Shown piece by piece: positions 7,891 through 63,533 of a DNA stretch of 64,000 nucleotides; the stretch's first letter is position 1, and the number at the start of each line of letters is the position of its first letter. The DNA comes from Acidimicrobium ferrooxidans (GTDB taxonomy: Bacteria > Actinomycetota > Geothermincolia > Fen-727 > Anoxymicrobiaceae). The notes under the pieces are model-generated. The model had not been told where the DNA came from. It saw only the letters and a program-made list of their open reading frames with translations, and ran no database searches. The stretch is from contig DYIU01000001.1 in NCBI GenBank assembly GCA_020723485.1, positions 757,850 through 821,849 on the forward strand, given 5' to 3'. The translations under genes were made by a program, and so were the position numbers.

Positions 7891-8019
7891 CCCCCGGTTT
7901 AGGCGCGTTTCAGGTCGCGCGGCATTTCGCCGATGAAAATCAAGGGTGGTCAAACCGCTGCTCCCGTTTACTGTGCCGGCACCAGCCCGATTGCGGCTGC
8001 AGGACCTGAGGGGTATTCG

Positions 8020-14951: not shown

Positions 14952-14980
14952 CACAGTCCTTGTAGCATCACAGTTGTCGT

Positions 14981-15009
14981 GGGCCTGCGTTCATTTCGAG
15001 CGCAGGCCC
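14981..15009 (+). terminator. Intra-operon hairpin between the SBP and permease genes (candidate partial terminator)
   Basis: GGGCCTGCG-TTCATTTCGAG-CGCAGGCCC followed by ATGTTTCTCT; 30 bp after the SBP stop. Confidence 0.4.
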
Positions 15010-15136
15010 ATGTTTCTCTAAAGGAGAAGGTCAGATCCCGGAGCACAGGGAAGGGTACGAGTTCAACCAGGAGGGCCAGCCGGTCTCTCTCTTCGAGAGG
15101 CAGGATGTAAGCGGGTGGGCCAAGGCCTCGCTCCTC

Positions 15137-18272: not shown

Positions 18273-18515
18273 ATGGCTAAGAGGAACATAACCCTCGCCC
18301 TTCCCGAGGAGCTAATCAAAAAGGTAAAGGTACAGGCCGCGAGGGAGGGAAAGTCGATAAACATGTACGCGCGGCAGGCCCTGGAGGAACGCCTGAGGGA
18401 GCGGTCGGGTTACGCCGCAGCGATGAGGCGACAACTGTCAGCCATGGAATCGGGCGCTTACATGGGAACAGGGGGGAAGGTGGAGCTCACAAGGGACGAA
18501 GTGCATGAGCGGTAA
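18273..18515 (+). CDS. vapB: Ribbon-helix-helix (CopG/VapB-like) antitoxin
   Basis: 80 aa; N-terminal RHH-like segment (NITLALPEELIKKVKVQAAREGKSINMYARQALEERL); overlaps the downstream PIN gene by 11 bp. Confidence 0.7.
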   Translation: MAKRNITLALPEELIKKVKVQAAREGKSINMYARQALEERLRERSGYAAAMRRQLSAMESGAYMGTGGKVELTRDEVHER

Positions 18516-18939
18516 GACTTTCGTGGACACGAATGTGCTGGTCTACGCCTACGACCGCTCACACGCCGGAAAGAACGAGACCGCGAGGTCGCTGGTGGCC
18601 GACCTGTGGGCCTCGGGCCTGGGAGTGTTGAGCACGCAGGTGCTCCAGGAGTTCTTCGTCACCGTCACGGCGAAGGTGCCGCGACCCCTCAAGATCGAGA
18701 AAGCACGCGAGATAGTGCGCGACCTCCTCAGATGGGAGGTTGTGGTCAATGACGCGGAGTCACTGGTCGGCGCGGCCGACCTGCAGAAGAGGTACGGGTA
18801 CTCGTTCTGGGACTCGCTCATCATCCGCGCAGCGGTAGAAGCGGGCGCGGACATACTCGTCACGGAGGACCTCGCAGCGGGACAGACCATCGGAGGAGTG
18901 ACCATCAGGAATCCGTTCTCTGGAGGGACAGGTGGCTGA
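18505..18939 (+). CDS. vapC: PIN-domain toxin (VapC-like)
   Basis: 144 aa; PIN acidic residues in the expected order (FVDTNVLVYAYD...E...D..I...A......LVTEDL). Confidence 0.8.
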   Translation: MSGKTFVDTNVLVYAYDRSHAGKNETARSLVADLWASGLGVLSTQVLQEFFVTVTAKVPRPLKIEKAREIVRDLLRWEVVVNDAESLVGAADLQKRYGYSFWDSLIIRAAVEAGADILVTEDLAAGQTIGGVTIRNPFSGGTGG

Positions 18940-33339: not shown

Positions 33340-35196
33340 ATGTACGGCAATACCGGAAAGGTGCTCGACGTCGATCTGACGTCCGGGGAGATCAACGTTA
33401 TCGAGCTCGACGAGGATACTTACCGCCAGTACGTGGGGGGCACGGGCCTCGCCGCCAGGCTGCTTTACGACCACGGCGACCTCGAGGCGGGCCCTCTCGA
33501 CCCCGGGAACCTCTTCATCGTGGCCATCGGACCGATGCAGGACACCGGGATGTACGGCACCAGCCGGTTCTCGGTTGGCGCCCGCTCTCCTCTGACCGGT
33601 GTCTGGGGCCAGGCCAGCTGCGGCGGCGACTTCGGCCCGGAACTCAGGCGCTGCGGCTACGACGCGGTTATCTTCAGGGGCAAAGCCTCCGAGCCGGTCT
33701 ACCTTCTCATCGAAGAATCAGAGGCTTCACTCCAACCCGCCGGCGACCTCTGGGGCAAGGACACCTACGTGGTCGACGACGAGCTCAAGGCAAAGCACAG
33801 CAAGCAGCACAGGATAATGGTCATCGGCCCCGCCGGCGAGAACGGCGTGCTCTTCGGCAGCATCGCCAACAGCAAGGGCCACCATGCCGGCCGCTCGGGA
33901 ATGGGCACGGTCATGGGCTCGAAGAACCTCAAGGCGGTCTGCGCGAAGGGCAGCATGAAGCAGGAGTACGCCGACCCCGAGGGCCTCAAGTCTTTCTGGC
34001 AGGACACGGTCCGGCCGCAGATGGACGAGAGCATCTACTGCCAGACTGTCGGAGCTTTCGGAACGGCTGCCAACATGGAGATGAAGATGATCGAGGGCGA
34101 CGTGCCCACCAAGAACTTCCTGGTCGGCTCCTGGGAAGAGGGCCCCGAGACCCTGAGCGGCATCGCGATGGCGGACACTATCCTGACAGGCCGGGAGACC
34201 TGCCGCGGCTGCGGAATCCGCTGCAAGCGGGTGGTGAAGATAGAGGAAGGCCCGTACGCGATAGGCGAAGGCCCGGGGCCGGAGTACGAGACCATCGGCA
34301 CGTTCGGCACGATGCTCATGAACCCCAACCTCGAGGCCGTGGCGAAGGCCAACGACCTGTGCAACCGCCTGGGGATGGACACCATGACCTGCGGGTCGAC
34401 GATCGCCTGGGCCATGGACTGCTTCGACCGAGGCATGTTGAAGCCGGAGGACTGGGACGGCATAAAGCTGGAGTGGGGCGAGATAGATCCTGTCATCGAC
34501 CTCGTCCAGAAGATCGCCGTGCGCGAGGGCAAGCTCGGCGAGCTGCTCTCCAGGGGCTCCGCGAAAGCCGCCGCGGAGGTCGGCAACGGGAGCGAGGAGC
34601 TGCTGACGACCAGCAAAGGCCTCGAGTCTCCCATGCACGACCCGCGCTGCAACTGGGGCGACGGCCTGGCTTACGCTACCTCAGTCCGAGGCGCGTGCCA
34701 CGTCTCCAACCTCATGTTCCTGCTCGAGTGGGGGGCCCTGGACTTCCCGGAGATAGGGGTAGACCACATACTCGACCCGATGGGAACCGAGTACAAGGCG
34801 GACGGGGCCGCGAAGATGCACGATATCGGGTGCATCACGAACTCTGCGTGCTGGTGCCAGTTCCCCTCGCAGGCTCTCAGTCTCCCCCAGTGGGTCGAGG
34901 CGTTCAACCTGGTCACCGGCTGGGGTTGGGACATCGACGAGTTCATGAAGACCGGCGGCCGCATATGGTTCCTGCAGCGCTGCCTCGGTCACATCTGGGG
35001 CGCGACCGCTGAAGACGACGTCATGGGCGCCAGGAGCATGTACCCGACCGAGGACGGCATGATCGCGGGCTCGGTGCCCGACATGGACACCATGCTCAAG
35101 GAGTTCTACGAGCTGCGGGGCCTGGACTCCGACGGCAAGCCGACGGAAGAGACCCTGAAGGACTACGGCCTCGACTTCCTCATCGGCAAGATCTGA
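33340..35196 (+). CDS. aor: Aldehyde:ferredoxin oxidoreductase (tungsten-pterin AOR family)
   Basis: 618 aa; AOR N-terminal domain (MYGNTGKVLDVDLTSGEINVIELDEDTYRQYVGGTGLAARLLY) and conserved Cys-containing Fe-S/pterin region (CRGCGIRCKR). Confidence 0.85.
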   Translation: MYGNTGKVLDVDLTSGEINVIELDEDTYRQYVGGTGLAARLLYDHGDLEAGPLDPGNLFIVAIGPMQDTGMYGTSRFSVGARSPLTGVWGQASCGGDFGPELRRCGYDAVIFRGKASEPVYLLIEESEASLQPAGDLWGKDTYVVDDELKAKHSKQHRIMVIGPAGENGVLFGSIANSKGHHAGRSGMGTVMGSKNLKAVCAKGSMKQEYADPEGLKSFWQDTVRPQMDESIYCQTVGAFGTAANMEMKMIEGDVPTKNFLVGSWEEGPETLSGIAMADTILTGRETCRGCGIRCKRVVKIEEGPYAIGEGPGPEYETIGTFGTMLMNPNLEAVAKANDLCNRLGMDTMTCGSTIAWAMDCFDRGMLKPEDWDGIKLEWGEIDPVIDLVQKIAVREGKLGELLSRGSAKAAAEVGNGSEELLTTSKGLESPMHDPRCNWGDGLAYATSVRGACHVSNLMFLLEWGALDFPEIGVDHILDPMGTEYKADGAAKMHDIGCITNSACWCQFPSQALSLPQWVEAFNLVTGWGWDIDEFMKTGGRIWFLQRCLGHIWGATAEDDVMGARSMYPTEDGMIAGSVPDMDTMLKEFYELRGLDSDGKPTEETLKDYGLDFLIGKI

Positions 35197-35206
35197 GTAA
35201 TAACCT

Positions 35207-35286
35207 GGGGTCACGTCATATTTTATTACCGGCGGTCACGCGTGCCTCGATAATCGGCACCAGGTAATAAAATTAGACGTGACCCC
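35207..35286. repeat. 80-bp palindromic element (24-bp arms GGGGTCACGTCATATTTTATTACC, 32-nt loop) between convergent genes
   Basis: Left arm 35207-35230 and right arm 35263-35286 are reverse complements with one or two mismatches; shares the GGGGTCA-GTCA 5-prime core with the element family found further downstream. Confidence 0.7.
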
Positions 35287-35289
35287 ATC

Positions 35290-36282
35290 TTATGACACGC
35301 TGTAGTAAGCGGTCTCACCGCGGAGCTCGCTTCCCACCCTGCGTTCGCTCTCGAGTATGACCAGGTGGCCGAAGACCTCCCGCATGCCCAGGAAGATGTT
35401 CTCCACGGTGTTCTCGGCCTCGATGTCCGCAAGCATGTCGAAGGTGAGCTCGATGACCGTCTTCTCCCCGTCCCCGAGCGCGCCCTCGATGAAACGCAGT
35501 CGCTCATCGTGGTGTGCGAGCACCTCCTCGACCCGCCTGCTGAAGTCCTCGATGCAGTCACCGTGACCCGGGAGCGCCAGGCGGACGTCCAGGCCCCTCA
35601 GCTTCTCGAGGGACCTGATGTAGTCGGGAAGGCCGCTCCGCTGTTCGCTCTGCCATGGGGGGTACATGTCGGGGTTCGGCGTGATGGTGTTGAGCAGCAT
35701 GTCGCCGGTGAAAAGGAGCTTCTGCGCCCTAAGGTAGAGGCAGATGTGGTCTATCGAGTGGCCGGGCGTGTGGATTACCTCGAGGTCGAACGGTTCGCCC
35801 TCCAGTATGTCTCCTTCCTCTACAGGCCTGTCGACGGCCACCCCTTCCGCTACCACGTCCCACTGGGAACTGGTCAGCGCCGTTGTTTTCACCAGCTCGC
35901 GGTCCAGCCCCATCAGCGGCGACATCCCTATCAGGTACTCGCGCAGGCGGACGGCCTCCTCCCTGTAGCTTCCGACCGGCCCGAGCCCGAGACGGTGACA
36001 GACCACCTCCGCGCCGCCCTCGGCCTTGAACCGTGCGGCTAGGCCCATGTGGTCGGGGTGGTGATGCGTGACGATTATCCTCTGGATGGAGGCCGGCGGG
36101 TGACCAAGCTCCGATAGCGTGCGCGGGATGGTCTCGGTGACTTCTTCCATGATGGGGCCGGTGTCGATGAGCGTCACCGGCTCGCCCTCGATGAGGTACA
36201 GGTTGACGGGCTGGACCGTGTAAGGTATCTCGAAGTGGAGCTTCCGGATGCCACCAGTGATATCGACTATCTCACGCTTCAA
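35290..36282 (-). CDS. MBL-fold metallo-hydrolase
   Basis: TTG start at 36282 with GGAGG upstream; metallo-beta-lactamase motif IIVTHHHPDHMG. Confidence 0.8.
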   Translation of the reverse strand: MKREIVDITGGIRKLHFEIPYTVQPVNLYLIEGEPVTLIDTGPIMEEVTETIPRTLSELGHPPASIQRIIVTHHHPDHMGLAARFKAEGGAEVVCHRLGLGPVGSYREEAVRLREYLIGMSPLMGLDRELVKTTALTSSQWDVVAEGVAVDRPVEEGDILEGEPFDLEVIHTPGHSIDHICLYLRAQKLLFTGDMLLNTITPNPDMYPPWQSEQRSGLPDYIRSLEKLRGLDVRLALPGHGDCIEDFSRRVEEVLAHHDERLRFIEGALGDGEKTVIELTFDMLADIEAENTVENIFLGMREVFGHLVILESERRVGSELRGETAYYSVS

Positions 36283-43845: not shown

Positions 43846-44976
43846 ATGGGGTCCCGGATAGACGAGGAGCTCCGCATGCTCGAGGAGATGGCGCTCGACT
43901 TCGCGGAGCGTGAGCTGAAGGACAGGCGCGAGGAGTGCGACCACTACCCCTACGCGCCGCTCGAGGAGAACGTGCTCGAGAAGGCCTGCGACGTGGGGTT
44001 TTTCTGCATGACCGTACCCGAGGAGCTCGAGGGCGGGGCCATGGGCGTCGAGGCGCTGTCGCTCGTGCTGAAGGACATATCGCGAACCGACGCGAGCCTC
44101 GCGGGAGTGATCTTCACTACCGCGCTCGCCCAGGAGCTCGTGCTGGCCGCCGGGGCCGGGTCGGTGCTTGCGGGCGCGCCGGGCAACGGCAGCTGGCGCG
44201 AATCTCTCATCGCGTTCCCCTCCTTCGACGACGCCGCCGAGAACCTCGGACTGAGTGCCGAACGGGCCGGCGGGGCGGGTTACACCCTGACGGGGAAGGT
44301 GGAATACGTTGTCCTGGGCGGTCTCGCCTCCAGGGCCCTGCTGCCGGCGGCGGTTCCCGGCGTGGACGGCTACTCCTTCTTCCTGCTCGACCTCGACGCC
44401 GAGGGTGTCAGGAAGAGCGAGCCTGTGCTGAGCCTCGGCCTGCACTCGTGCCCGGCCGTGGACCTGGAGCTCGACGGCGCGAGGGCCGCGCTCGTCGGAG
44501 AGGAGGGGCTGGGCGCCAGCTATTTCACCGACTGCGCCGACAGGCTGAGCATACCCGCCGCGGCCATCTCAACCGGCATCATGAAGGGGTGCCTCGACGA
44601 GGCGCTGGAGTACTCGCGGCAGAGGTTCCAGGGGGGCAGGGAGATAGTCAACTGGTCGGAGCTCAGGCGCATTCTCGCGGACATGGCGACCGTCCAGGCG
44701 ACGGCCGACGCGCTGGTCGCATGCGCCTGCGTGCGGGCCGAGGCAGACGAGCCCGGGTGGCGCCTGCTGGCCAGGGCGACGGCCCTCCAGGTGCAGGCCG
44801 CCGCCTGCGACGTCACGACCGACGGCATACAGGTCCTCGGCGGGAACGGCTACATGGAGGACTACGGGCAGGAGAAGCGGTTCCGCGACGCCAAGCAGGT
44901 CCAGGCGCTGCTCGGCCTGGTGCCGATGAGAAAGCTCGAGTACATAACCCGTGTCATCGAAGGCGAACCCACTTGA
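43846..44976 (+). CDS. Acyl-CoA dehydrogenase-like protein (second paralogue)
   Basis: Follows the first ACAD by 12 bp; N-terminal ACAD-like helical domain; C-terminal region ends with a GGNGY-type motif (LGGNGYMEDYGQEKRFRDAK). Confidence 0.7.
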   Translation: MGSRIDEELRMLEEMALDFAERELKDRREECDHYPYAPLEENVLEKACDVGFFCMTVPEELEGGAMGVEALSLVLKDISRTDASLAGVIFTTALAQELVLAAGAGSVLAGAPGNGSWRESLIAFPSFDDAAENLGLSAERAGGAGYTLTGKVEYVVLGGLASRALLPAAVPGVDGYSFFLLDLDAEGVRKSEPVLSLGLHSCPAVDLELDGARAALVGEEGLGASYFTDCADRLSIPAAAISTGIMKGCLDEALEYSRQRFQGGREIVNWSELRRILADMATVQATADALVACACVRAEADEPGWRLLARATALQVQAAACDVTTDGIQVLGGNGYMEDYGQEKRFRDAKQVQALLGLVPMRKLEYITRVIEGEPT

Positions 44977-44986
44977 ACGCAAAATC

Positions 44987-45008
44987 GGGGTCAGGTCACT
45001 TTGTTGCG
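44987..45008. repeat. Solo 22-bp arm of the GGGGTCAGGTCA element family
   Basis: GGGGTCAGGTCACTTTGTTGCG, 11 bp after the ACAD stop; no partner arm within 100 bp. Confidence 0.7.
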
Positions 45009-45047
45009 TTTCCTGGACAGGATCGAAAGGACGGGCGGGAGGACACA

Positions 45048-45837: not shown

Positions 45838-46167
45838 ATGGGCGAATTCACCCTCTTCGAGATGCTGCGGATACCCACGTACGACAACGAGGACTACGCG
45901 ACCACCGGGCGGGTCACGATCGACCTCGAGAAGTGCAACGGCTGCGGGTTGTGCGCTAAGGTGTGCCCGGGCAAGGCGCTCTATGTCGCAGGCGAGGGGA
46001 AGGACCGGAAGGCGCACATGCACGCTGATTTCCCGCAGTGCATGTCCTGCAACGACTGCGCCGCGATATGCGAGCGCGACGCCATATTCGTGAGCGTCCC
46101 CTACTTCTTCCCGTTCTTCTTCAAGACGCAGGGCAAGGGCGAGTTCTCGCCCCCCCGCAAGTTCTAA
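45838..46167 (+). CDS. 4Fe-4S dicluster ferredoxin-domain protein
   Basis: Two cysteine clusters: CNGCGLCAKVCP and CMSCNDCAAICE. Confidence 0.7.
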   Translation: MGEFTLFEMLRIPTYDNEDYATTGRVTIDLEKCNGCGLCAKVCPGKALYVAGEGKDRKAHMHADFPQCMSCNDCAAICERDAIFVSVPYFFPFFFKTQGKGEFSPPRKF

Positions 46168-46176
46168 CGAAACACA

Positions 46177-46249
46177 GGGTCAGGTCACTTGTTGCATTTC
46201 TTACTCTGAACTTGGCGGAGGATACAAGTGCAACAAGTGACCTGACCCC
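46177..46249. repeat. Full palindromic element of the GGGGTCAGGTCA family (20/21-bp arms, 32-nt loop)
   Basis: Arms GGGTCAGGTCACTTGTTGCA (46177-46196) and TGCAACAAGTGACCTGACCCC (46229-46249) are reverse complements; lies in the 85-bp gap between the ferredoxin and SDR genes. Confidence 0.8.
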
Positions 46250-46267
46250 GATGTGCAGGGAGGTGCA

Positions 46268-52326: not shown

Positions 52327-52346
52327 CGCCGTCACCCGAGAAGGAC

Positions 52347-52377
52347 GAAACCCCCGGTACAGATGACCGGGGGTTTC
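52347..52377. terminator. Hairpin with 10-bp GC-rich stem between convergent genes (candidate bidirectional terminator)
   Basis: GAAACCCCCGG-TACAGATGA-CCGGGGGTTTC, immediately after the TetR stop and before the stop of the minus-strand membrane-protein gene. Confidence 0.55.
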
Positions 52378-52398
52378 GAATGAAGGTTCCGGATCGCG

Positions 52399-56163: not shown

Positions 56164-58032
56164 ATGAGAGGCGACTCGATCACGGGCTGCGAGCTCATCT
56201 CGCGGTGCCTCGAGGCGGAGGGCATCCGCTACGTCTTCACGGCACATACCGAGCGCCTGCACCCCCTGCTCGACGCTCTCGAGCAAAAGGGAGACATCAG
56301 GGTGGTGGCGGCCAGAAGCGAGACCGCGGCCACGGTGATGGCCGACGGGTACGTCCGGCGCTCGAGGCGCGTCGCGGCGGTCCTGACCGACGACAACGGC
56401 GCCGCGTTGTCGCAGGTGAGCGGGGTGACCAACGCGTGGGCGGACAAGATCCCCCTGCTGTCGCTGTCACTCAGCGCGGACAGTGAGCCAGACTTCAGCA
56501 AAGGGTATGACCGTTACCGCTTCGACCAGGGTGAGGTCTTCCAGCCGGTCACCCAGTACAGGAGTAAGCTCGAGTCGCTTTCCGAGGCGCAGTCGGTCTT
56601 TGCCGAGGCCGTTGCGCGTTCCACCAGCAACAAGATGGGGCCGTGCCACGTAGACATCCCGGCGCGCCTGCTTGGCGAGACTATCGACGGCAGGTCGGCG
56701 CCTGACCCGGGCGGTTTCGAGGAGCGGAGGATAGAGTCCGTCAGGATGTGCGGTGACGGGGACGCCGTGGAGCGCGCCGCGGCCCTGATCGCCGGTGCCG
56801 AAAGGCCCCTGCTGTTCCTCGGCGGCGGTGTCCATGCCTCGGGCGCCCATGCCGAGGCCGCCGGGCTTGCCAGGGGGCTTGGCATTCCCGTGGCGACCTC
56901 GATGGCCGGCGTCGGGGCGTTCCCGCTGGACGACCCGCTCTGCCTGGGGGGCCCGAGCTATACCTCGGGTGAGGTCTTCCATGCGGCGATCAAGGAAGCG
57001 GACACGGTCGTAGCCGTGGGTGTCAGTTTCGGCGGCCTCGAGGGCTTCGGACTTCCACCGCTGTGGTCGGACGCGATACGGTTCATACACATCGACGTCG
57101 CCCCCCTGCAGATGGGCTTGAACGTACACCCGGAGGTAGCGGTGCTGGGTGACGCGCGGACCGTCCTGACCCAGCTGGCGGAAACGCTCGCGGGTCGTGG
57201 CTTCACGGGCCGGCCGGAGTGGGGCCGCTGGAGCGCCAGACTGGCGGAGCTCAAATCCGGGCGGGCCAGGCGGCTGGAGCGCAACGCCATGAGGCGTTGG
57301 CCCTCCATGCACCAGGGAAGGGCAGCGATGGAGCTCGGCAGGCTCGTGGACCGGGACGACCTGCTGATAGTCATCGACGGCGGCAACACTCCGCTCTACG
57401 CCACCATGTACGCCCCCACCATAAAGCCCGGACAGGCGTTCTTCCCGTTCGGGATGGCCGCCCTCGGCGGGGGAATCCCATACGCGATAGGGGTGCAGCT
57501 CGCGTCGCCCGACAGGCGGGTGCTGCTGGTCACCGGTGACGGTTCTTTCATGTACAACGTCCAGGAGCTGGAGACGATCAAGAGGCTCGGGCTCCCGATA
57601 ATGATCGCCGTGAACAACGACTCCGCCTGGAACATGATAAAGGCCATGCAGGACTCCCTGTTCGCGCGCAACTTCGTGGGCACGTGCCTGCCGGATGTCG
57701 ATTACTCGAAGATAGCCTCCGGGTTCGGCCTCCACGCTGAGAGGGTCTCGCGGCCCGAGGAGATAGCCCCTGCTTACGAGCGGGCGGTGGCTTCGGGCGG
57801 CCCGGCGCTCATCGACGCGGTCACTGACTCCACGAACATCCCGGACAGCCTGCTCAGCTTCTTCCTTGTCGAGTTCGAGGGAGCGTTCGCGGGCATCAGC
57901 CCCACCAAGCTCGCCAGGAGCCTCTGGATGATGAGAGACGTGGGAATCCACAGGATGATGTACATGTCGACTTACATCAGGAAAGCGCTCTTGAAGGTGT
58001 TCATCCCTTCGGGGTGGGGGAGGTCGTCATGA
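56164..58032 (+). CDS. Thiamine-pyrophosphate-dependent enzyme (acetolactate-synthase/2-hydroxyacyl-CoA-lyase superfamily)
   Basis: TPP N-terminal domain with catalytic Glu context (ARSETAATVMADGY); central domain; intact TPP-binding motif GDGSFMYN...NNDSAWN. Confidence 0.8.
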   Translation: MRGDSITGCELISRCLEAEGIRYVFTAHTERLHPLLDALEQKGDIRVVAARSETAATVMADGYVRRSRRVAAVLTDDNGAALSQVSGVTNAWADKIPLLSLSLSADSEPDFSKGYDRYRFDQGEVFQPVTQYRSKLESLSEAQSVFAEAVARSTSNKMGPCHVDIPARLLGETIDGRSAPDPGGFEERRIESVRMCGDGDAVERAAALIAGAERPLLFLGGGVHASGAHAEAAGLARGLGIPVATSMAGVGAFPLDDPLCLGGPSYTSGEVFHAAIKEADTVVAVGVSFGGLEGFGLPPLWSDAIRFIHIDVAPLQMGLNVHPEVAVLGDARTVLTQLAETLAGRGFTGRPEWGRWSARLAELKSGRARRLERNAMRRWPSMHQGRAAMELGRLVDRDDLLIVIDGGNTPLYATMYAPTIKPGQAFFPFGMAALGGGIPYAIGVQLASPDRRVLLVTGDGSFMYNVQELETIKRLGLPIMIAVNNDSAWNMIKAMQDSLFARNFVGTCLPDVDYSKIASGFGLHAERVSRPEEIAPAYERAVASGGPALIDAVTDSTNIPDSLLSFFLVEFEGAFAGISPTKLARSLWMMRDVGIHRMMYMSTYIRKALLKVFIPSGWGRSS

Positions 58033-59570
58033 GGTACCCGAGCGGAGGCGAACTGCTGGTCGAGTGCCTGGTCCGGCAGGGGGTATCCCATGTCTTCTCC
58101 ATCATCGGGGGCCAGATGGGCACCATCTACGACGCTATCGGCAGGTCGGGGGACATAGACGTTGTGACGCCCCGGAGCGAGACGGCGGCCGCGCTCATGG
58201 CGTGCGGCTACACCGCCGCGAGCGGCCGCCCGTGCGTGTCGATGGCGACGGTCGGCGCCGGGGTGGTCTACGAGGTCGCGGGCCTCTCCAAGGCGTGGTT
58301 CGATTACCTGCCGGTGATATCGATCGCGCCGCAGGTCCAGAGCTACCGGGTCAAGCCTCACCAGGAGAGCCTGCAGGCGTGCGAGCAGGACGAGCTCTTC
58401 TACCCGATAACGAAATGGAACTCCATTGTCTTCCACTGGGCGAGGATACCCCAGATGGTGGACAGGGCATTCAGGGAGGCGCTCACTGGAGTGCCCGGGC
58501 CGGTTCACCTCGACATCCCGGTGGACGTCCTGTTCAAGCGAAGCCCGCTCACGGCCGCGCGGGAGCAGAGGTTGATGGTGGAACCGGGCCGGTCGCGCTA
58601 CGAGGGCTCCATCATGGGAGAAGCCGACGCGGCCGGGAGGGTTTTCCGGGCACTGAGCGCGGCGAGAAGGCCGCTTGCCGTCATCGGACAGGGATTCGGC
58701 CGGCCCGGCAGGTTCCCTGCGGCCGCCGCGTCATTGGAGGAGATGGGCGTTCCTGTCGTCACTACCGTGCACAGTGCCGGGGTGATGCCGGATGGGAGCG
58801 CCTGTTACGCGGGCGACCTCGAGTCCTGCGAGGGGCTCGAAGTGGTCGGACAGACCGATCTCGTCCTGCTGGTGGGCATAGACCACGGCTCCCGGGGGTT
58901 CATTGAGCGAATAGGCGCCGCGGTTCCCGTCGTGCAGGTCGAGACGGACCCCACGGCGTTTCTTTCCGGGCGTGATGTGCGCGTCGCCGTCTACGCGGAC
59001 CCCGAGAACGCGCTCGCCGGGATGAAGGAGGCCACGGTGAAGGCCGACGTCAGCTCCTGGCGCGAAGAGTTCGTTGCGGCCGCAAGGGACGCAGCCGACT
59101 CGGCTGCGGCGGAACACCAGGTCGTGGGCACGATTGTCGACATGCTCCGTGAGGCCGGCACCGGGAGGAACGTCATAGTCGCCGATGGAGAGGTCCCTGC
59201 GCTTGCGGCACGGCGGGTACTTACGCGGGTAGAGCACAAGGCCGTCTTCATCATGGACGAGCGTGAGATCCGCGGAGCCGGCCTCCCGTTCGCAATCGGC
59301 GCGCACCTGTCCGAACCGGGCGACAATGTCATCCTCGTGTGCGACAAGAACTCGCTCTTCTACCACGTAAGGGAGCTTCAGCCGGCGGTCTGTGGCGGAA
59401 TGGACATAACTGTGATCTGCGTCGATGACGTCGATGCGGAGACCAACGTCGCGGACACGGGCAGCGTCCTCTCCGGGCTCGGATGCGACGTCAGAAGATG
59501 CGCTGGGGGCCGGAGGGGGGACCTCGCTTCCTGCCTGGCCGGCGTACCCTCCGCGGTCATCCTCCAGTGA
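58029..59570 (+). CDS. TPP-enzyme homologue with degenerate TPP-binding motif
   Basis: ATG at 58029 with GGGGGAGG RBS, overlapping the upstream stop; TPP N-terminal-like domain present (PRSETAAALMACGY) but the position of the GDG...NN motif reads CDKNSLFYHV...VCVDDVD. Confidence 0.7.
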   Translation: MRYPSGGELLVECLVRQGVSHVFSIIGGQMGTIYDAIGRSGDIDVVTPRSETAAALMACGYTAASGRPCVSMATVGAGVVYEVAGLSKAWFDYLPVISIAPQVQSYRVKPHQESLQACEQDELFYPITKWNSIVFHWARIPQMVDRAFREALTGVPGPVHLDIPVDVLFKRSPLTAAREQRLMVEPGRSRYEGSIMGEADAAGRVFRALSAARRPLAVIGQGFGRPGRFPAAAASLEEMGVPVVTTVHSAGVMPDGSACYAGDLESCEGLEVVGQTDLVLLVGIDHGSRGFIERIGAAVPVVQVETDPTAFLSGRDVRVAVYADPENALAGMKEATVKADVSSWREEFVAAARDAADSAAAEHQVVGTIVDMLREAGTGRNVIVADGEVPALAARRVLTRVEHKAVFIMDEREIRGAGLPFAIGAHLSEPGDNVILVCDKNSLFYHVRELQPAVCGGMDITVICVDDVDAETNVADTGSVLSGLGCDVRRCAGGRRGDLASCLAGVPSAVILQ

Positions 59571-59584
59571 CGTGATGCAACACT

Positions 59585-59606
59585 GGGGTCAGGTCATTTT
59601 GTTGCG
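59585..59606. repeat. Solo 22-bp arm of the GGGGTCAGGTCA element family
   Basis: GGGGTCAGGTCATTTTGTTGCG, 15 bp after the stop of the second TPP-enzyme gene. Confidence 0.7.
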
Positions 59607-59686
59607 TTTTCAACTGGCAGGGGGGTGGAAGCGGGCCTTCGTAGGGCGTAATCTGTATCCCACAGCAGCAGATCGAGGAGGTCTTC

Positions 59687-60238
59687 ATGGGGGACGAGAT
59701 GAACGGGACTGCCGGCGAAGCCGGAGCGTCCGGGTGGAGTGACCCCAAGGTCGCTGGCTATCTGATGACGCTGACATATGCGTGCGGCGCCGCCGGAGTG
59801 GCACTCGGTGTCTACGGGTATGGGACGGACGGAGCCGTGAAAGGGCTGCACTACGCCTGCATCCTGATGGTCGGCGTCGTCGGGATCATCTCCGGGATAC
59901 GGCACACCGTCTTCTATCGAAGCGACCTTGCGCGGATGGGCATAAGCGAGGGGAAACCGTTCTTCCAGTGGGAGACCGGCTTCGCCAACCTTGCGCTGGG
60001 CGTCATCGCGGTCATCGCCTTCTTCGCCGGCTGGGGCGGCGGCGCCGAGGTGGCCCTCATACTGGCATATGCGCTCTACCTCGCCCTCGCCCTCTCGCTC
60101 GTGATCTACAGGCGCGTCAGCTCGAAGAGCCTGGACGCGGGCGTGATATTCGCTATGGTCATGTGGGCGGTAACGGTGGGCTTCATGCTCTTCTTCGGTA
60201 TCGCGGCGGCCGTTTCTTCCGAGCTGTCGCTGTTCTGA
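59687..60238 (+). CDS. Hypothetical membrane protein (183 aa)
   Basis: GAGGAGG RBS; four to five predicted TM helices; no family recognised. Confidence 0.6.
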   Translation: MGDEMNGTAGEAGASGWSDPKVAGYLMTLTYACGAAGVALGVYGYGTDGAVKGLHYACILMVGVVGIISGIRHTVFYRSDLARMGISEGKPFFQWETGFANLALGVIAVIAFFAGWGGGAEVALILAYALYLALALSLVIYRRVSSKSLDAGVIFAMVMWAVTVGFMLFFGIAAAVSSELSLF

Positions 60239-60247
60239 CGCAAACAA

Positions 60248-60326
60248 GGGGTCAGGTCACTTTGTTGCATTTTCACGTGTTCGATCCAGTGAAGTGCAGT
60301 AAAACGCAACAAAGTGACCTGACCCC
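60248..60326. repeat. Full palindromic element of the GGGGTCAGGTCA family (22-bp arms, 35-nt loop) between convergent genes
   Basis: Arms GGGGTCAGGTCACTTTGTTGCA (60248-60269) and CGCAACAAAGTGACCTGACCCC (60305-60326); starts 10 bp after the membrane-protein stop and ends 10 bp before the stop of the minus-strand aldo/keto reductase gene. Confidence 0.8.
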
Positions 60327-60335
60327 GATGTTGCG

Positions 60336-61337
60336 CTACTTGCCGATGGGGAGGTAGTGGCGGAACCTGCGCGAGAGCTGGTCGATGCGGTCCATCTCCC
60401 TGTCCGAGAGCTTGAGCTGCATCGAGGCCACGTTCTGCTCGGCCTGGCTGACCTTGGTCGCGCCCGGGATGGCGACGACGGTATCCCCGTAGTAGTTGGT
60501 GAGCCAGCTCAGGGCGACCACAGCCGCGCTCACCCCGTTCGCGTCCGCGATCTCCTCGAGGCCCTCTACGAGCTTCCGGCTGCGCTCCAGCTGGATGCGC
60601 ATCACCTGCCGGCGCCCGAACGGCCTCGTCTTAAGCAGGGACGGGTCCTTGTGGAACTTGCCCGTCAGTATGCCCATCTCAAGGGGCGACCAGGCGATGA
60701 GGGTGATTCCCAGCTCCTTCGCGGCCTTGAGCGTCCCCAGCGTCTCGATGCGCCGGTTGAGGAGGCTTATCTTCACCTGGTTTGACGCGAGCGGAACCCC
60801 GCGCATGGCGAGCGCCGCGTGCGCTTTTCTCATCATGAACCAGGGGAAGTTGCTGACCCCGGGGGCGCGTATCTTGCCCGTTTCCACCAGGTCCGCCATC
60901 GCGTCCATCTGGGCCCGGACAGAGGAGAGCGCGATGGGCTGGTGTATCTGGAACAGGCCGACCGGGTAAGGGGCAAGGCACTCTATGCGCGTGTCGATAT
61001 TCACCCGCAGCGAGTCGGCCGTCCTCATGAACGGGAACCACTTGGTGGCGACCAAGACGTCCGTTTCTGCATATTCCGCGGCCTCCAGCGCGCAGGCGAG
61101 CCTGCGCTCGGAGCGCCCCATGCCGTATGCCTCGGCGGTATCGAACCAGTTCACGCCCCCCGCCTTCGCCGTCTTGACGATTTGGATGGTCTCGTCGTCG
61201 CAGACCTCCTGCCAGACGAGGCCGTCGAAACCCTGCCCCCCGGCGAACTGCCAGGTCCCGAGGCCGATGGGGGATATCTCGATCCCGGTGCGGCCGAGCT
61301 GCCGCCTCGGGGCTCCGTCAGTAGCTACAGCGCTCAT
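60336..61337 (-). CDS. Aldo/keto reductase
   Basis: ATG at 61337; AKR N-terminus (LGRTGIEISPIGLGTWQFAGG...VNWFDTAEAYG) and C-terminal region (QLSRRFRHYLP). Confidence 0.85.
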   Translation of the reverse strand: MSAVATDGAPRRQLGRTGIEISPIGLGTWQFAGGQGFDGLVWQEVCDDETIQIVKTAKAGGVNWFDTAEAYGMGRSERRLACALEAAEYAETDVLVATKWFPFMRTADSLRVNIDTRIECLAPYPVGLFQIHQPIALSSVRAQMDAMADLVETGKIRAPGVSNFPWFMMRKAHAALAMRGVPLASNQVKISLLNRRIETLGTLKAAKELGITLIAWSPLEMGILTGKFHKDPSLLKTRPFGRRQVMRIQLERSRKLVEGLEEIADANGVSAAVVALSWLTNYYGDTVVAIPGATKVSQAEQNVASMQLKLSDREMDRIDQLSRRFRHYLPIGK

Positions 61338-61866: not shown

Positions 61867-61961
61867 TATCGTAGCACTGTTGATGTCCCCCTGCGCAGAA
61901 AAGGCGAAGGCCGCGCCCCGGCGCTCGTGGCGCGGCCTTCACTGACGCGTTGTCGGAACGC

Positions 61962-63359
61962 CTAGTCGTCCCAGGCGCCGATGGTCTCCTCCCCCGAGGT
62001 GCGGGCGGAAAGAGACCCCGCCTCGGTCCATATGTAAGTGGCGCGCTCGCAGATTATGTTCTGTCCGGGGGTGAGGCTCCTCACCCTGATCGCATACCTG
62101 CCCGGCGTGGTCATGGTGTCCGCCAGGTTGTAGGTGGCTCGCGTGTTGGCAAGGACAGTCCTGTTGATGGTCGCGTCCGGAAGCACGCCCTCACCGTAGT
62201 ACTTCATCTCGATGTTGACGTCCACCGGATTTGGATTCTGCACGCAGGTCCAGGTCTCGTACAGCAGTCCGCAGTTGCCTCCGGGGAGGTACCAGTAGGC
62301 GTGAGACCCGTCAACCCCTATGGAGTCGTGGCCCACCTCGCGCCAGATGCTTCCGGAGCCCCAGTACATCGGTCGCTCGGCGAGGAGCGGGAGGGTGCCC
62401 GACACCTTGATGGACAGGTCGGTGTTGGGCGCCTGCTCGTTGACCTTGATGGTCTCGCGTGTCTGGGGGGCCATCGGGAATGGAGCCATTACGATCTGGC
62501 CGCTCGGCTTCATGTAGGTGATGGTCACCTGGTTCACAGCCGCGTTGGGATTCTGGATGCACAGGAATGTCGTGAACCCCCAGGCCGTCGTTCCCTCGGC
62601 GAGGAAGAAGTCGTTGGCCGGGGTAGTGGCGCCGACCGACTCGTGACCCATCCTGCGGGAGTCCCTGTACATGGACCTTTCGCAGATTATCGGCTGGTTT
62701 CCCAGCACCTGGATGGAGGCGTCCGCCGAGCCTATGTCGTTCGTCATGTTGTAGGACGCGCGAGAATTAGAGGGGACCGTCTTGTTGACGGCGAACGGCC
62801 CGAAACCCTCGATCATGTAAGTGATGATGATGTCTGTAGCTGCCACGTTCGGGTTCTGCACCGTTAGCCAGGTCTCGAAGCCCCATGCGCTGGAGCCCTC
62901 CGGGAGATACCAGATGTTGTTCGGGGCGGTGACGCCTACAGATGAGTGGGTCTCCAGGTTCTGCTCCACTTCGGAGCCCGGCCCACCCATCCAGAACATA
63001 GTCCGATCGACGGCAATAGTCCTGGTCGGGTCGAGGCACTCCACCAGGGTGCTGAAATCCCGCTGGCCAACTGCAGTCAGGGGATTTACGGTCACTCGGC
63101 TCTCGGAAGGCATCGTGAACGGGGGCTGGACGAGCGGGCCCAGGTCCGCGGTCATGTAGGTTATGCGGATCTGGACGTCAACGGTGTTCGGGTTCTCTAT
63201 GTTGATGTAGGTGCCGAAGCCCCAGGCGGTAGTGCCTTCTGCGAGGTACCAGGTCGGGAGCGGGCCCGCCACGGCCGCCCCTCCGCCGAGGAGCATTAGC
63301 GATGCCGCGCCGGCGCACATCATAAGGGCTACCAGAATCGAGATCATCTTCCGTGCCAT
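61962..63359 (-). CDS. Secreted repeat protein (~465 aa) made of signal peptide plus 4 type-B repeat modules
   Basis: ATG at 63359 (MARKMISILVALMMCAGAASLMLLGGGAAVAG); the upstream part of the ORF (to 63470) is translated palindromic element; four ~110-aa modules beginning WYL[AP]EG[TS].AWGF.T[YW][IL]...NPN. Confidence 0.75.
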   Translation of the reverse strand: MARKMISILVALMMCAGAASLMLLGGGAAVAGPLPTWYLAEGTTAWGFGTYINIENPNTVDVQIRITYMTADLGPLVQPPFTMPSESRVTVNPLTAVGQRDFSTLVECLDPTRTIAVDRTMFWMGGPGSEVEQNLETHSSVGVTAPNNIWYLPEGSSAWGFETWLTVQNPNVAATDIIITYMIEGFGPFAVNKTVPSNSRASYNMTNDIGSADASIQVLGNQPIICERSMYRDSRRMGHESVGATTPANDFFLAEGTTAWGFTTFLCIQNPNAAVNQVTITYMKPSGQIVMAPFPMAPQTRETIKVNEQAPNTDLSIKVSGTLPLLAERPMYWGSGSIWREVGHDSIGVDGSHAYWYLPGGNCGLLYETWTCVQNPNPVDVNIEMKYYGEGVLPDATINRTVLANTRATYNLADTMTTPGRYAIRVRSLTPGQNIICERATYIWTEAGSLSARTSGEETIGAWDD

Positions 63360-63440
63360 CACACCCACCTCCGTAAGGTTGCCTGCTTCAAGAGTACTCC
63401 TGCGGGCAATGACGGTCGAGAGCGCAGTTCCCTTACATGC

Positions 63441-63529
63441 GCACAATGGGGTCAGGTCATTTTGTTGCATTCAAGGAGTCTGGGATGAGTATGGTCAAAA
63501 TGCAACAAAATGACCTGACCCCATTGTGC
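63441..63529. repeat. Full palindromic element of the GGGGTCAGGTCA family with extended arms (~28 bp, 31-nt loop)
   Basis: Core arms GGGGTCAGGTCATTTTGTTGCA (63448-63469) and TGCAACAAAATGACCTGACCCC (63501-63522); the palindrome extends outward to GCACAATGGGG...CCCCATTGTGC; lies between two minus-strand genes. Confidence 0.8.
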
Positions 63530-63533
63530 ACCG

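What the first reader, a model, noticed from the sequence alone, without database searches (positions are those of the whole stretch)
60248..60326. Full palindromic element exactly filling a convergent gene junction
The element begins 10 bp after the stop of the plus-strand membrane-protein gene and ends 10 bp before the stop of the minus-strand aldo/keto reductase gene. That placement would let one hairpin serve both convergent transcripts, for example as a bidirectional terminator or 3-prime protective structure. There is no U-tract on either side, so termination would have to be factor-dependent or the role is stabilisation.
Basis: partly seen in the sequence, partly recalled or inferred. 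Interest (0 to 1): 0.45.

Follow-up and report, generated by a model that had tools for sequence, protein, structure and literature searches.

The report
Dispersed palindromic repeat behind stop codons
The hairpin between the two convergent genes is real, but it is one copy of an undescribed, REPIN-like family of short repeats that sit directly behind stop codons in an uncultured actinobacterial lineage; it was gained here only recently, so any terminator or mRNA-protecting role is a side effect of a repeat family rather than a device built for this gene pair.

Summary
Observation confirmed and extended. The perfect 21-nt arms (60248-60268 / 60306-60326) belong to 35-nt arms (60239-60273 / 60301-60335) that fill the whole 97-nt gap between the TGA of a DUF6790 membrane-protein gene and the TAG of an aldo/keto reductase gene. 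The RNA hairpin is -53.5 / -57.7 kcal/mol (z about -9 / -10).

It is not unique. The unit YGCAACAnY-GGGGTCAGGTCACTTTGTTGC-RTTTY (~36 nt) occurs 8 times in the window: 3 inverted pairs and 2 solos. A second subfamily pair lies at 35197-35296. The unit also occurs in a Candidatus Geothermincolia MAG and in 20 metagenome contigs.

Across 43 arms:
- pairs always have the RTTT ends facing inward;
- spacers are 33-40 nt and unrelated in sequence;
- there are no target-site duplications;
- 25 arms have a gene reading into the outer end and stopping within 15 nt (15 of them within 0-2 nt), against 2 for the inner end.

Four related lineages have a repeat-free 33-35-nt spacer at the orthologous junction, so the element is a lineage-specific gain.

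Best reading: a REPIN-like doublet of a mobile or selfish intergenic repeat. By analogy with E. coli REPs it probably blocks 3' exonucleases and read-through on both transcripts. It fails the classical REP membership tests (no GT(A/G)G head, no compact palindrome) and no RAYT was seen. I rate it a new variant of a known kind, of moderate interest.

The parts
60239..60273 (+). Left repeat unit (arm) of the focal doublet: CGCAAACAA-GGGGTCAGGTCACTTTGTTGC-ATTTT. It starts 0 nt after the TGA of the DUF6790 gene.
   Evidence: nhmmer hit 60237-60276, E 3e-12; stop-to-unit distance 0.
60274..60300 (.). 27-nt unique spacer (loop). It is unrelated to the spacers of other copies and not significantly similar to the ancestral spacer of relatives.
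   Evidence: p 0.14-0.94.
60301..60335 (-). Right repeat unit (arm), inverted: CGCAACATC-GGGGTCAGGTCACTTTGTTGC-GTTTT on the minus strand. It starts 0 nt after the TAG of the aldo/keto reductase gene.
   Evidence: (nhmmer hit 60337-60300, E 1.4e-13).
59687..60238 (+). DUF6790 membrane-protein gene whose 3' end runs into the left arm.
   Evidence: (PF20589, 1.5e-10).
60336..61337 (-). Aldo/keto reductase gene whose 3' end runs into the right arm.
   Evidence: PF00248, 1.3e-59.
59576..59611 (+). Solo unit of the same family, 5 nt after the stop of the upstream ThDP-enzyme gene (58014-59570).
44978..45013 (+). Solo unit, 1 nt after the stop of the acyl-CoA dehydrogenase gene (43846-44976).
46168..46257 (.). 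Full doublet (variant: both arms lack one T/A). It directly follows the TAA of the ferredoxin gene (45838-46167) and lies upstream of a co-directional SDR gene. Fold -50.1 kcal/mol, z -9.7.
63439..63531 (.). Full doublet between co-directional minus-strand genes, 2 nt after the TAG of the YkuD gene. Fold -61.2 kcal/mol, z -11.5. It is absent at the orthologous L027 site.
35197..35296 (.). Doublet of a second subfamily (GTAATAA-cct-GGGGTCACGTCA-tat-TTTATTAC). It fills the convergent junction AFOR (33340-35196, +) / MBL-fold (35290-36282, -), and its right outer box GTCATAA contains the minus gene's TAA. Fold -49 kcal/mol, z -8.8.

Best explanation
The element is one copy of a dispersed, lineage-restricted intergenic repeat family. 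The lineage is probably Candidatus Geothermincolia-type Actinomycetota.

The basic unit is about 36 nt. It has an outer box (YGCAACA), two variable bases, an invariant core (GGGGTCAGGTC AC), an inner box complementary to the outer box (TGTTGC), and a tail (RTTTY). Units occur solo, in tandem, and most conspicuously as inverted doublets with the tails facing each other across a 23-30-nt non-conserved spacer. That is the architecture of a REPIN (a REP doublet that forms a hairpin).

Shown: the focal copy is such a doublet, and it was gained in this lineage in place of a 33-35-nt plain spacer. Units lie directly behind stop codons with the outer box towards the gene, so at a convergent junction the doublet abuts both stops. 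There are no target-site duplications.

Inferred: the family spreads, or has spread, as non-autonomous mobile DNA handled by an enzyme encoded elsewhere in the genome that recognises the box-core-box' unit. A single-strand (HUH/Y1-type) mechanism fits the lack of duplications, but it has not been shown.

Inferred by analogy with E. coli REPs: once in place, both convergent mRNAs carry a 35-bp hairpin (-53 to -58 kcal/mol) that starts at the stop codon. This should block 3'-to-5' exonucleases and impede read-through into the opposite gene without a U-tract, either factor-dependently or by RNA polymerase pausing or collision. Because the stem begins 0 nt after the stop, a terminating ribosome must melt its base, which could also lower translation or termination efficiency.

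These effects are consequences of the insertion and not the reason it exists.
For: Repeat family:
- The 21-mer occurs 6 times in the window against 0 expected, plus a variant pair.
- It occurs 5 times in genome contigs, 4 of them in one Ca. Geothermincolia MAG, in 20 metagenome contigs, and in no viral contig.
- The unit profile is sharply bounded from -9 to +26, with a 100 % conserved core.

Doublet rules:
- All 11 pairs are oriented + then -, with spacers of 33-40 nt (one of 23 nt) and unrelated spacer sequences.
- 91 % of stem cells are paired, and covariation exceeds all 500 shuffles, driven by the two variable positions.
- The arms of a pair share private variants.

Lineage-specific gain:
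- Four related lineages have repeat-free 33-35-nt spacers with the same stop codons.
- At the second site the whole doublet is extra relative to L027, while the flanks align.
- Those relatives carry the family at other positions.
- A short-read assembly breaks at both elements.

Stop-codon abutment and orientation:
- 25 arms have a gene reading into the outer end and 2 into the inner end; 15 of the 25 lie within 0-2 nt of the stop.
- A rough uniform-placement null gives 6e-7 for five sites.

Second subfamily: same architecture, with compensatory box changes.

Hairpin strength.

Literature:
- REPIN spacers also differ between all copies (PMC3337134).
- E. coli REPs are about 60 % convergent, 40 % tandem and 1 % divergent, and act as terminator-stabilisers (10.64898/2026.03.23.713779).
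Against: - No RAYT or other transposase was found in the 64-kb window or in roughly 150 kb of related loci. RAYT/REP systems are described only from Proteobacteria (PMC2817692).
- The unit lacks the GT(A/G)G head and the compact palindrome of classical REPs. Single arms do not fold better than shuffled sequence.
- No two copies share a spacer, so copy-and-paste of whole doublets is not directly shown.
- The two focal arms differ from each other as much as random arms do (6 of 36 positions against a mean of 5.1). That fits two separate solo insertions as well as it fits one doublet.
- Genome-wide copy number is unknown.
- Arms were collected with an exact 21-mer, which inflates apparent core conservation.
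- There are no transcript data, so every functional statement is by analogy.
Confidence: 0.7

Rival explanations
1. Two independent solo units, one inserted behind each stop codon, happen to face each other. The 'palindrome' would then be a by-product of two events, not a doublet that arrived as one piece.
For: - Solo units exist and sit behind stop codons in gene orientation.
- Each focal arm abuts its own stop at 0 nt.
- The focal arms differ at 6 of 36 positions, as much as unrelated arms, and unlike 9 of 11 pairs they disagree in the variable dinucleotide (AA against TC).
- The 97-nt gap equals 35 + 27 + 35, close to two units added to a short native spacer.
Against: - The inter-core spacing (37 nt) falls in the narrow 33-40-nt range of all doublets, including those where only one arm faces a gene.
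- At 63439-63531 the whole doublet, loop included, is the gain.
- The loop is not detectably derived from the relatives' spacer, although those spacers are too diverged for that test to be decisive.
Confidence: 0.25
2. A locally evolved bidirectional terminator or 3' stabiliser dedicated to this convergent gene pair.
For: - The hairpin is strong and symmetric and touches both stops.
- Other convergent junctions in the window carry native GC-rich hairpins, for example 52346-52378, so 3' hairpins are used in this genome.
Against: - The arms are copies of a dispersed repeat found behind many unrelated genes.
- The junction is hairpin-poor and only 33-35 nt long in four related lineages.
- There is no U-tract, and no terminator-like call.
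Confidence: 0.05
3. The unit is primarily a protein-binding site that the host maintains: a 3'-UTR RNA motif or a double-stranded DNA site. In this reading the invariant GGGGTCAsGTC core is presented between two complementary boxes, and the doublets and hairpins are secondary.
For: - The core is 100 % conserved, while the boxes change in a compensatory way between subfamilies A and B.
- There is a strict orientation relative to the upstream gene.
- An arm sits at the same position behind the YkuD stop in two lineages that are 86 % identical in protein sequence, with unrelated inner sequence.
Against: - Single arms are not thermodynamically significant hairpins.
- Presence/absence varies between relatives at every site examined.
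- The genes served are functionally unrelated.
- No candidate binding protein was identified.
Confidence: 0.12
4. Each arm is a small intrinsic terminator of its own: a box-core-box' hairpin followed by RUUUY. Each convergent transcript would then stop inside the palindrome before the long hairpin can form.
For: - In gene orientation only, the unit ends with a short U-run (consensus RTTTY).
- The orientation bias of 25 to 2 would be explained.
Against: - The stems are 6-9 bp with a 15-17-nt loop, at -8 to -14 kcal/mol, and z-scores are mostly non-significant. The B arm gives -3.9 kcal/mol, z +1.5.
- The U-runs are only 3-4 nt.
- The units are not picked up by the terminator scan.
Confidence: 0.08
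5. An integron-type attC recombination site or a classical DDE-transposase MITE.
For: - The four-box topology (box, box', box, box') and the variable centre resemble attC.
- The outer box ACGCAAC and its complement GTTGCGT match RYYYAAC and GTTRRRY at 6 of 7 positions (sequence; consensus from my own knowledge).
- The terminal inverted repeats resemble those of a MITE.
Against: - Boxes within an arm are 15-17 nt apart, not 5-8.
- Solo and tandem units occur.
- There is no cassette array, and no integrase or transposase in the window.
- No target-site duplication is present at any of the 11 doublets.
Confidence: 0.03

Closest known systems
REPINs (REP doublets forming hairpins) of Pseudomonas and Enterobacteria, mobilised by RAYTs
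   Same: - Two copies of a short extragenic unit in inverted orientation, separated by a short spacer whose length is constrained but whose sequence differs in every copy (PMC3337134; here).
- Singlets and tandem clusters also occur.
- No target-site duplications.
- Presence/absence varies between relatives.
- The arms of a doublet are kept complementary.
   Different: - The unit is not a GT(A/G)G head plus a compact palindrome. It is box-core-box' with a 15-17-nt invariant, asymmetric core.
- The spacer does not extend the hairpin.
- No RAYT was seen, and RAYTs are not reported outside Proteobacteria (PMC2817692).
- The host is an uncultured Actinomycetota lineage.
- Abutment to stop codons is much tighter.
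E. coli REP/BIME elements as 3'-UTR regulators
   Same: - Extragenic, at gene 3' ends between convergent or tandem genes and almost never between divergent genes.
- The palindrome can serve both convergent transcripts.
- No canonical U-tract; termination is partly Rho-dependent, with protection from decay (10.64898/2026.03.23.713779).
   Different: - The sequence is unrelated.
- The function here is untested.
- The stem here is far longer (35 bp) and starts at the stop codon itself.
Neisseria DUS / Haemophilus USS inverted pairs in terminators
   Same: A conserved short sequence occurs as inverted pairs with non-conserved loops downstream of genes (my own knowledge; PMC1852404 is listed but I did not read it).
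   Different: Uptake sequences are 10-12 nt (up to 29 nt extended), are very frequent and are common inside genes. Here the unit is 36 nt and 0 of 43 copies lie in coding sequence, apart from overlaps with the last codons.
Intrinsic bidirectional terminators at convergent genes
   Same: A single symmetric hairpin between two stops. Native examples exist in this window (52346-52378 and 61906-61940).
   Different: This element has a 27-nt loop, no flanking A/U tracts, and repeat-family arms.

Membership tests
Classical REP (Nunvar et al. 2010; Stern/Higgins) | Short (20-40 nt) extragenic unit present in many copies | tested here: met
   The unit is 36 nt. There are 10 arms in the 64-kb window (8 of subfamily A, 2 of B), and 43 A arms in all in the sequence reached. 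All are extragenic, apart from overlaps with stop and last codons. The genome-wide count is unknown.
Classical REP (Nunvar et al. 2010; Stern/Higgins) | GT(A/G)G head followed by a compact imperfect palindrome | tested here: not met
   The consensus YGCAACAnYGGGGTCAGGTCACTTTGTTGCRTTTY has no such head. Its only self-complementarity is 6-7-bp boxes 15-17 nt apart, and single arms fold no better than shuffles (definition from PMC2817692).
Classical REP (Nunvar et al. 2010; Stern/Higgins) | A rayt (Y1/IS200-like) gene flanked by two inverted REPs in the same genome | not testable with these tools
   No PF01797-type protein or HUH-like motif was found in the window or the loci.
Classical REP (Nunvar et al. 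2010; Stern/Higgins) | Located at 3' ends: between convergent or tandem genes, not divergent ones | tested here: met
   25 of 43 arms have a gene reading into them. The window copies comprise 2 convergent doublets, 2 tandem doublets and 2 solos behind stops, and none lies between divergent genes.
REPIN | Two units of the same type in inverted orientation at a characteristic spacing, forming a long hairpin | tested here: met
   11 A doublets and 1 B doublet. Spacers are 33-40 nt (one of 23 nt), 91 % of stem cells are paired, and folds are -49 to -61 kcal/mol.
REPIN | Spacer sequence not conserved but organised to continue the hairpin | tested here: inconclusive
   The spacers are unrelated, as in REPINs. 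They carry only weak internal structure (0 to -4.9 kcal/mol) and do not extend the stem.
REPIN | Doublet is the mobile unit (insertion/excision of whole doublets) | tested here: inconclusive
   The whole doublet is the difference at 63439-63531 against L027. At the focal site, one doublet and two solo insertions cannot be told apart. No excision data.
DDE-type MITE | Terminal inverted repeats flanked by a direct target-site duplication | tested here: not met
   The flanks of the 11 doublets and the filled/empty comparison show no direct duplication. Solo and tandem units also argue against it.
Rho-independent terminator | GC-rich stem, 3-8-nt loop, U-tract immediately 3' | tested here: not met
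   The loop is 27 nt, there is no U-tract outside the stem, and the scan makes no call.
Integron attC | R''/L''-L'/R' boxes 5-8 nt apart, GTTRRRY core site, cassette array next to intI | tested here: not met
   The boxes are 15-17 nt apart and match the core consensus at 6 of 7 positions only. Solo and tandem units occur, there is no integrase, and the neighbouring genes are ordinary and syntenic with relatives.
Rfam RNA families | Score at or above a family's gathering threshold | tested here: not met
   There were 0 hits at gathering thresholds in the whole window. In E-value mode only sub-threshold miRNA-precursor hairpin matches appeared.

The most novel reading that the evidence does not exclude
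The family may be a new class of miniature element, or host-maintained 3'-end module, in Actinomycetota. It is defined by a box-core-box' unit whose invariant GGGGTCAsGTC core is recognised by an as yet unknown enzyme or binding protein that is not a proteobacterial-type RAYT. In this reading the unit is placed, in gene orientation, within the first one or two nucleotides after stop codons. That would amount to targeting of gene 3' ends, not random insertion filtered by selection, and would directly affect translation termination and mRNA 3'-end formation.
Probability: 0.2. Interest if true: 0.65.

Novelty: new variant of a known kind. Interest (0 to 1): 0.35.

Why it matters
REP/REPIN-type repeats have been characterised almost entirely in Proteobacteria. 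If this reading is right, an analogous and structurally different family in an uncultured actinobacterial class would show three things:
- Hairpin-forming doublets behind genes arise repeatedly.
- There is a clean set of filled and empty sites for studying how such repeats are gained.
- There is a natural test of what a 35-bp hairpin placed exactly at a stop codon does to termination, decay and translation of convergent genes.

Practically, the family fragments short-read assemblies of these genomes and creates spurious ORFs, for example the 'MQQNDLTP...' N-terminal extension of ORF 61962-63470. For the specific finding, the message is sobering: the junction hairpin is ordinary repeat DNA and not a bespoke regulatory device.

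Tried and rejected
- **Loop as remnant of the ancestral 35-nt spacer.** Local alignments against four relatives were no better than shuffles (p 0.14-0.94). Dropped. The test is weak because the relatives' spacers are themselves diverged.
- **Spacers shared between copies (copy-paste signature).** None found. The only similar flanks were allelic versions of the same locus (L015/L020, L018/L021).
- **Single arm as hairpin or terminator.** Folds are weak and mostly non-significant.
- **Known RNA family.** Rfam at gathering thresholds gave 0 hits, and E-value mode gave only miRNA-like noise.
- **Plasmid or phage origin.** No blastn hit; no viral contig.
- **Mobilising enzyme.** Pfam on 48 window ORFs (49 queries) and 10 ORFs next to arms in other loci, plus a crude HUH-motif regex, found nothing.
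- **Gene cassettes bracketed by arms** (44978...46257 and 59576...60335). Explained more simply by each successive gene having a unit behind its stop.
- **attC, MITE and uptake-sequence readings.** Each failed on defining features.
- **Source record.** The look-up of encoding contigs did not hold P0001 and cluster look-up gave no name, so the taxon is inferred only from the MAG that shares the repeat.
- **Correction.** My first dinucleotide-concordance script compared only one variable base. The corrected figure of 9 of 11 comes from the alignment.

Full report
**1. Observation**

The inverted repeat is real. Arms 60248-60268 and 60306-60326 are perfectly complementary over 21 nt. The complementarity continues imperfectly to 60239-60273 / 60301-60335 (35 nt, 86 %), with 27 nt between the arms. 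As RNA, the 103-nt stretch that includes both stop codons folds at -53.5 kcal/mol (+ strand) and -57.7 kcal/mol (- strand). The z-scores are -9.0 and -10.0, and no shuffle folds as well.

- 59687-60238 (+) is a hydrophobic DUF6790 protein.
- 60336-61337 (-) is an aldo/keto reductase.

The stops are TGA at 60236-60238 and TAG (minus strand) at 60336-60338, so the 35-nt arms fill the 97-nt gap completely. There is no U-tract outside the stem and no terminator-like call.

**2. It is a repeat family, not a one-off**

The 21-mer occurs six times in the window against zero expected, and a variant pair lies at 46176-46249. The window holds:
- three doublets (46168-46257, 60239-60335, 63439-63531);
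- two solo units (44978-45013, 59576-59611).

The same 21-mer is found on four contigs of a Candidatus Geothermincolia MAG, with one doubtful hit in a Solibacter MAG. It is also on 20 metagenome contigs and on no viral contig. It gives no hit in plasmids or phages, reaches no Rfam threshold, and is not mentioned in the held literature. A short-read assembly of the same strain breaks at both neighbouring elements (L026), as expected for multi-copy DNA.

**3. Anatomy of the family**

Forty-one arms give a sharply bounded unit from -9 to +26 relative to GGGG: YGCAACA-nY-GGGGTCAGGTCACTTTGTTGC-RTTTY(Y). The GGGGTCAGGTC core is invariant and there is no conservation outside the unit. Note that the arms were collected with an exact 21-mer, which inflates core conservation. 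The partner arms and flanks were not so constrained.

Features of the doublets:
- All 11 have the RTTT ends facing inwards.
- Inter-core spacers are 33-40 nt, with one of 23 nt.
- Spacer sequences are unrelated.
- No direct target duplication is present.

Units also occur in direct tandem (L014 with period 37, L006 with period 40).

On an alignment of the 11 doublets, 91 % of the 35-bp stem cells pair. The covariation score (0.104) exceeds all 500 shuffles. The signal comes mainly from the two variable positions, which show CG, AU and UA types and agree between arms in 9 of 11 doublets. Arms of one doublet also share private variants. Both arms of 46168-46257 have the same 1-nt deletion, and both arms of 63439-63531 carry GCACAA and CATTTT. 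The two arms are therefore kept concordant, either by common origin, by palindrome-templated correction, or by selection for the stem.

The focal doublet is an exception. Its arms differ at 6 of 36 positions, as much as unrelated arms (mean 5.1).

**4. Position rule**

In 25 of 43 arms a coding-like ORF of at least 70 codons reads into the outer (GCAACA) end and stops within 15 nt. In 15 of those 25 the distance is 0-2 nt. Only two arms have a gene reading into the inner end. For five sites where both neighbours are known, uniform placement within the free intergenic space would give these offsets with a joint probability of about 6e-7 (a rough figure).

The genes concerned are unrelated. They include an aldehyde dehydrogenase, a histidine kinase, YkuD, ThDP enzymes, an acyl-CoA dehydrogenase and a ferredoxin.

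'Exact filling' of a convergent junction is thus what a doublet of this family does. A second example is 35197-35296, which starts 0 nt after the TGA of an aldehyde:ferredoxin oxidoreductase gene and contains the TAA of the opposing metallo-beta-lactamase-fold gene in its outer box.

**5. A second subfamily**

That 35197-35296 element reads GTAATAA-cct-GGGGTCACGTCA-tat-TTTATTAC. The core is kept, while the outer and inner boxes have changed together and are still complementary to each other (A: GCAACA/TGTTGC; B: GTAATAA/TTATTAC).

This argues that the box-core-box' arrangement is what is recognised. Yet single arms are not significantly stable as free RNA hairpins: A arms give -8 to -14 kcal/mol, mostly non-significant, and the B arm gives -3.9 kcal/mol with z +1.5. 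Recognition by a protein, on ssDNA or dsDNA, is the more likely reason. This is inference.

**6. Gain and loss**

The orthologous DUF6790/AKR junction was recovered from four related lineages whose DUF6790 proteins are 73-79 % identical to the window's. All four have the same stop codons and a repeat-free spacer of 33-35 nt. The window lineage therefore gained a net 62 nt.

At the second site the window and L027 share the YkuD stop and a conserved downstream leader. The whole 93-nt doublet, loop included, is extra in the window.

The relatives are not free of the family. L027/L028/L030 have a unit 1 nt after the stop of the DUF5719 gene, where the window has a plain 15-bp hairpin, and L032/L033 end in a unit.

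L025, whose YkuD C-terminus is 86 % identical to the window's, has a unit 2 nt after the same TAG with unrelated inner sequence. L027 (84 % identical) is empty at that site. This could be an old conserved arm with a drifting loop, or a recurrent hot spot.

**7. What it is and how it probably works**

The best-supported reading is a REPIN-like doublet of a non-autonomous intergenic repeat. The REPIN literature reports the same odd property that first puzzled me: conserved arms, with no two copies sharing a spacer (PMC3337134).

No mobilising enzyme is visible in the window or the loci. The absence of target duplications would fit a single-strand HUH/Y1-type mechanism, but that is inference.

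By analogy with E. coli REPs, I infer that the focal hairpin protects both 3' ends and hinders read-through without a U-tract. E. coli REPs are about 60 % convergent, 40 % tandem and 1 % divergent, act as partly Rho-dependent terminators and decay blocks, and are frequent within mapped bidirectional terminators (10.64898/2026.03.23.713779).

Because the stem starts at the stop codon, terminating ribosomes must open it. From my own knowledge, Liang, Rudd and Deutscher (Mol Cell 2015) reported that REPs within about 15 nt of a stop codon reduce translation through ribosome stalling. I could not retrieve that paper here.

Canonical hairpin-plus-U terminators are not enriched in this part of the window, while native GC-rich hairpins occupy other junctions. 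A repeat-borne hairpin could therefore plausibly substitute for them. The empty sites in relatives show that it is dispensable.

**8. Membership and novelty**

The family fails the defining features of classical REPs: there is no GT(A/G)G head and no compact palindrome. The RAYT criterion is untestable with the sequence available. It meets the architectural REPIN criteria. It fails the tests for a MITE (no target duplication), attC, an intrinsic terminator and any Rfam family.

I therefore call it a new variant of a known kind. It works like a REPIN/REP, but membership is not demonstrated.

The taxonomic assignment rests only on the shared repeat with one MAG. The source record could not be named.

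**9. Verdict**

- Interest is moderate at 0.35. The focal hairpin itself is ordinary repeat DNA. The family's tight, oriented abutment to stop codons and its box-core-box' unit in an uncultured actinobacterial lineage deserve a genome-wide follow-up.

Noticed in passing
window 35197-35296: A palindromic doublet of a second subfamily (GTAATAA-cct-GGGGTCACGTCA-tat-TTTATTAC) exactly fills another convergent junction (AFOR / MBL-fold genes). Its outer box supplies the TAA of the minus-strand gene. The boxes are changed in a compensatory way relative to the main family.
   Followed up: partly
window 44978-45013 and 59576-59611: Solo units sit 1 and 5 nt behind the stops of an acyl-CoA dehydrogenase gene and a ThDP-enzyme gene. 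Together with the next doublet they bracket the nitroreductase + ferredoxin genes and the DUF6790 gene, which gives a cassette-like look. This is better explained by one unit per gene end.
   Followed up: yes
window 1-35000 versus 35000-64000: All 10 arms of the family lie in the last 29 kb of the window, and none lies in the first 35 kb (Lon, ABC transporters, AdnAB-like genes). The reason for this clustering is unexplained.
   Followed up: no
window 61962-63470 (-): The longest ORF of the DUF5719-like gene starts inside the repeat (MQQNDLTP...). The true start is probably near 63359 (MARKMISILV...). The repeat generates spurious N-terminal extensions and small ORFs containing 'QQSDLTP'.
   Followed up: partly
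L014 27-100; L006 947-1024: Units also occur head-to-tail in tandem (periods 37 and 40 nt), reminiscent of BIME-like clusters.
   Followed up: no
L015 ~1081-1094 versus L020 ~34-55: Two versions of the same locus differ by about 9 nt (GATGCAATA) inserted between the stop region and the unit. The insert resembles a partial duplication of the outer box and may be a footprint of repeat activity.
   Followed up: no
L027 9361-9380 and 9410-9450: Behind the DUF5719 gene of a relative there is one good unit plus a degenerate second copy (AAAAGCGACCTGGCC) about 50 nt further on in the same orientation. The window has a plain 15-bp hairpin (61906-61940) at the orthologous place.
   Followed up: partly
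window 52346-52378; 61906-61940; 14978-15012: Native, non-repeat hairpins at gene ends: a perfect 13-bp palindrome (CGAAACCCCCGGT/ACCGGGGGTTTCG) at a convergent junction, a 15-bp stem, and one canonical 15-bp stem followed by TTTCTCT.
   Followed up: no
window 18273-18939: A ribbon-helix-helix antitoxin-like ORF overlaps a PIN-domain (VapC-like) ORF. This is a probable type II toxin-antitoxin pair.
   Followed up: no
window 7933-13977 and 61962-63359: A 2014-aa protein with nine IPT/TIG repeats plus DUF5719, and a second, smaller DUF5719 protein next to a YkuD L,D-transpeptidase. These are probable cell-envelope proteins.
   Followed up: no
window 56164-58032 and 58014-59570: Two tandem ThDP-dependent (acetolactate-synthase-like) genes overlap by 19 nt. 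The second has a weak C-terminal ThDP-binding domain match.
   Followed up: no
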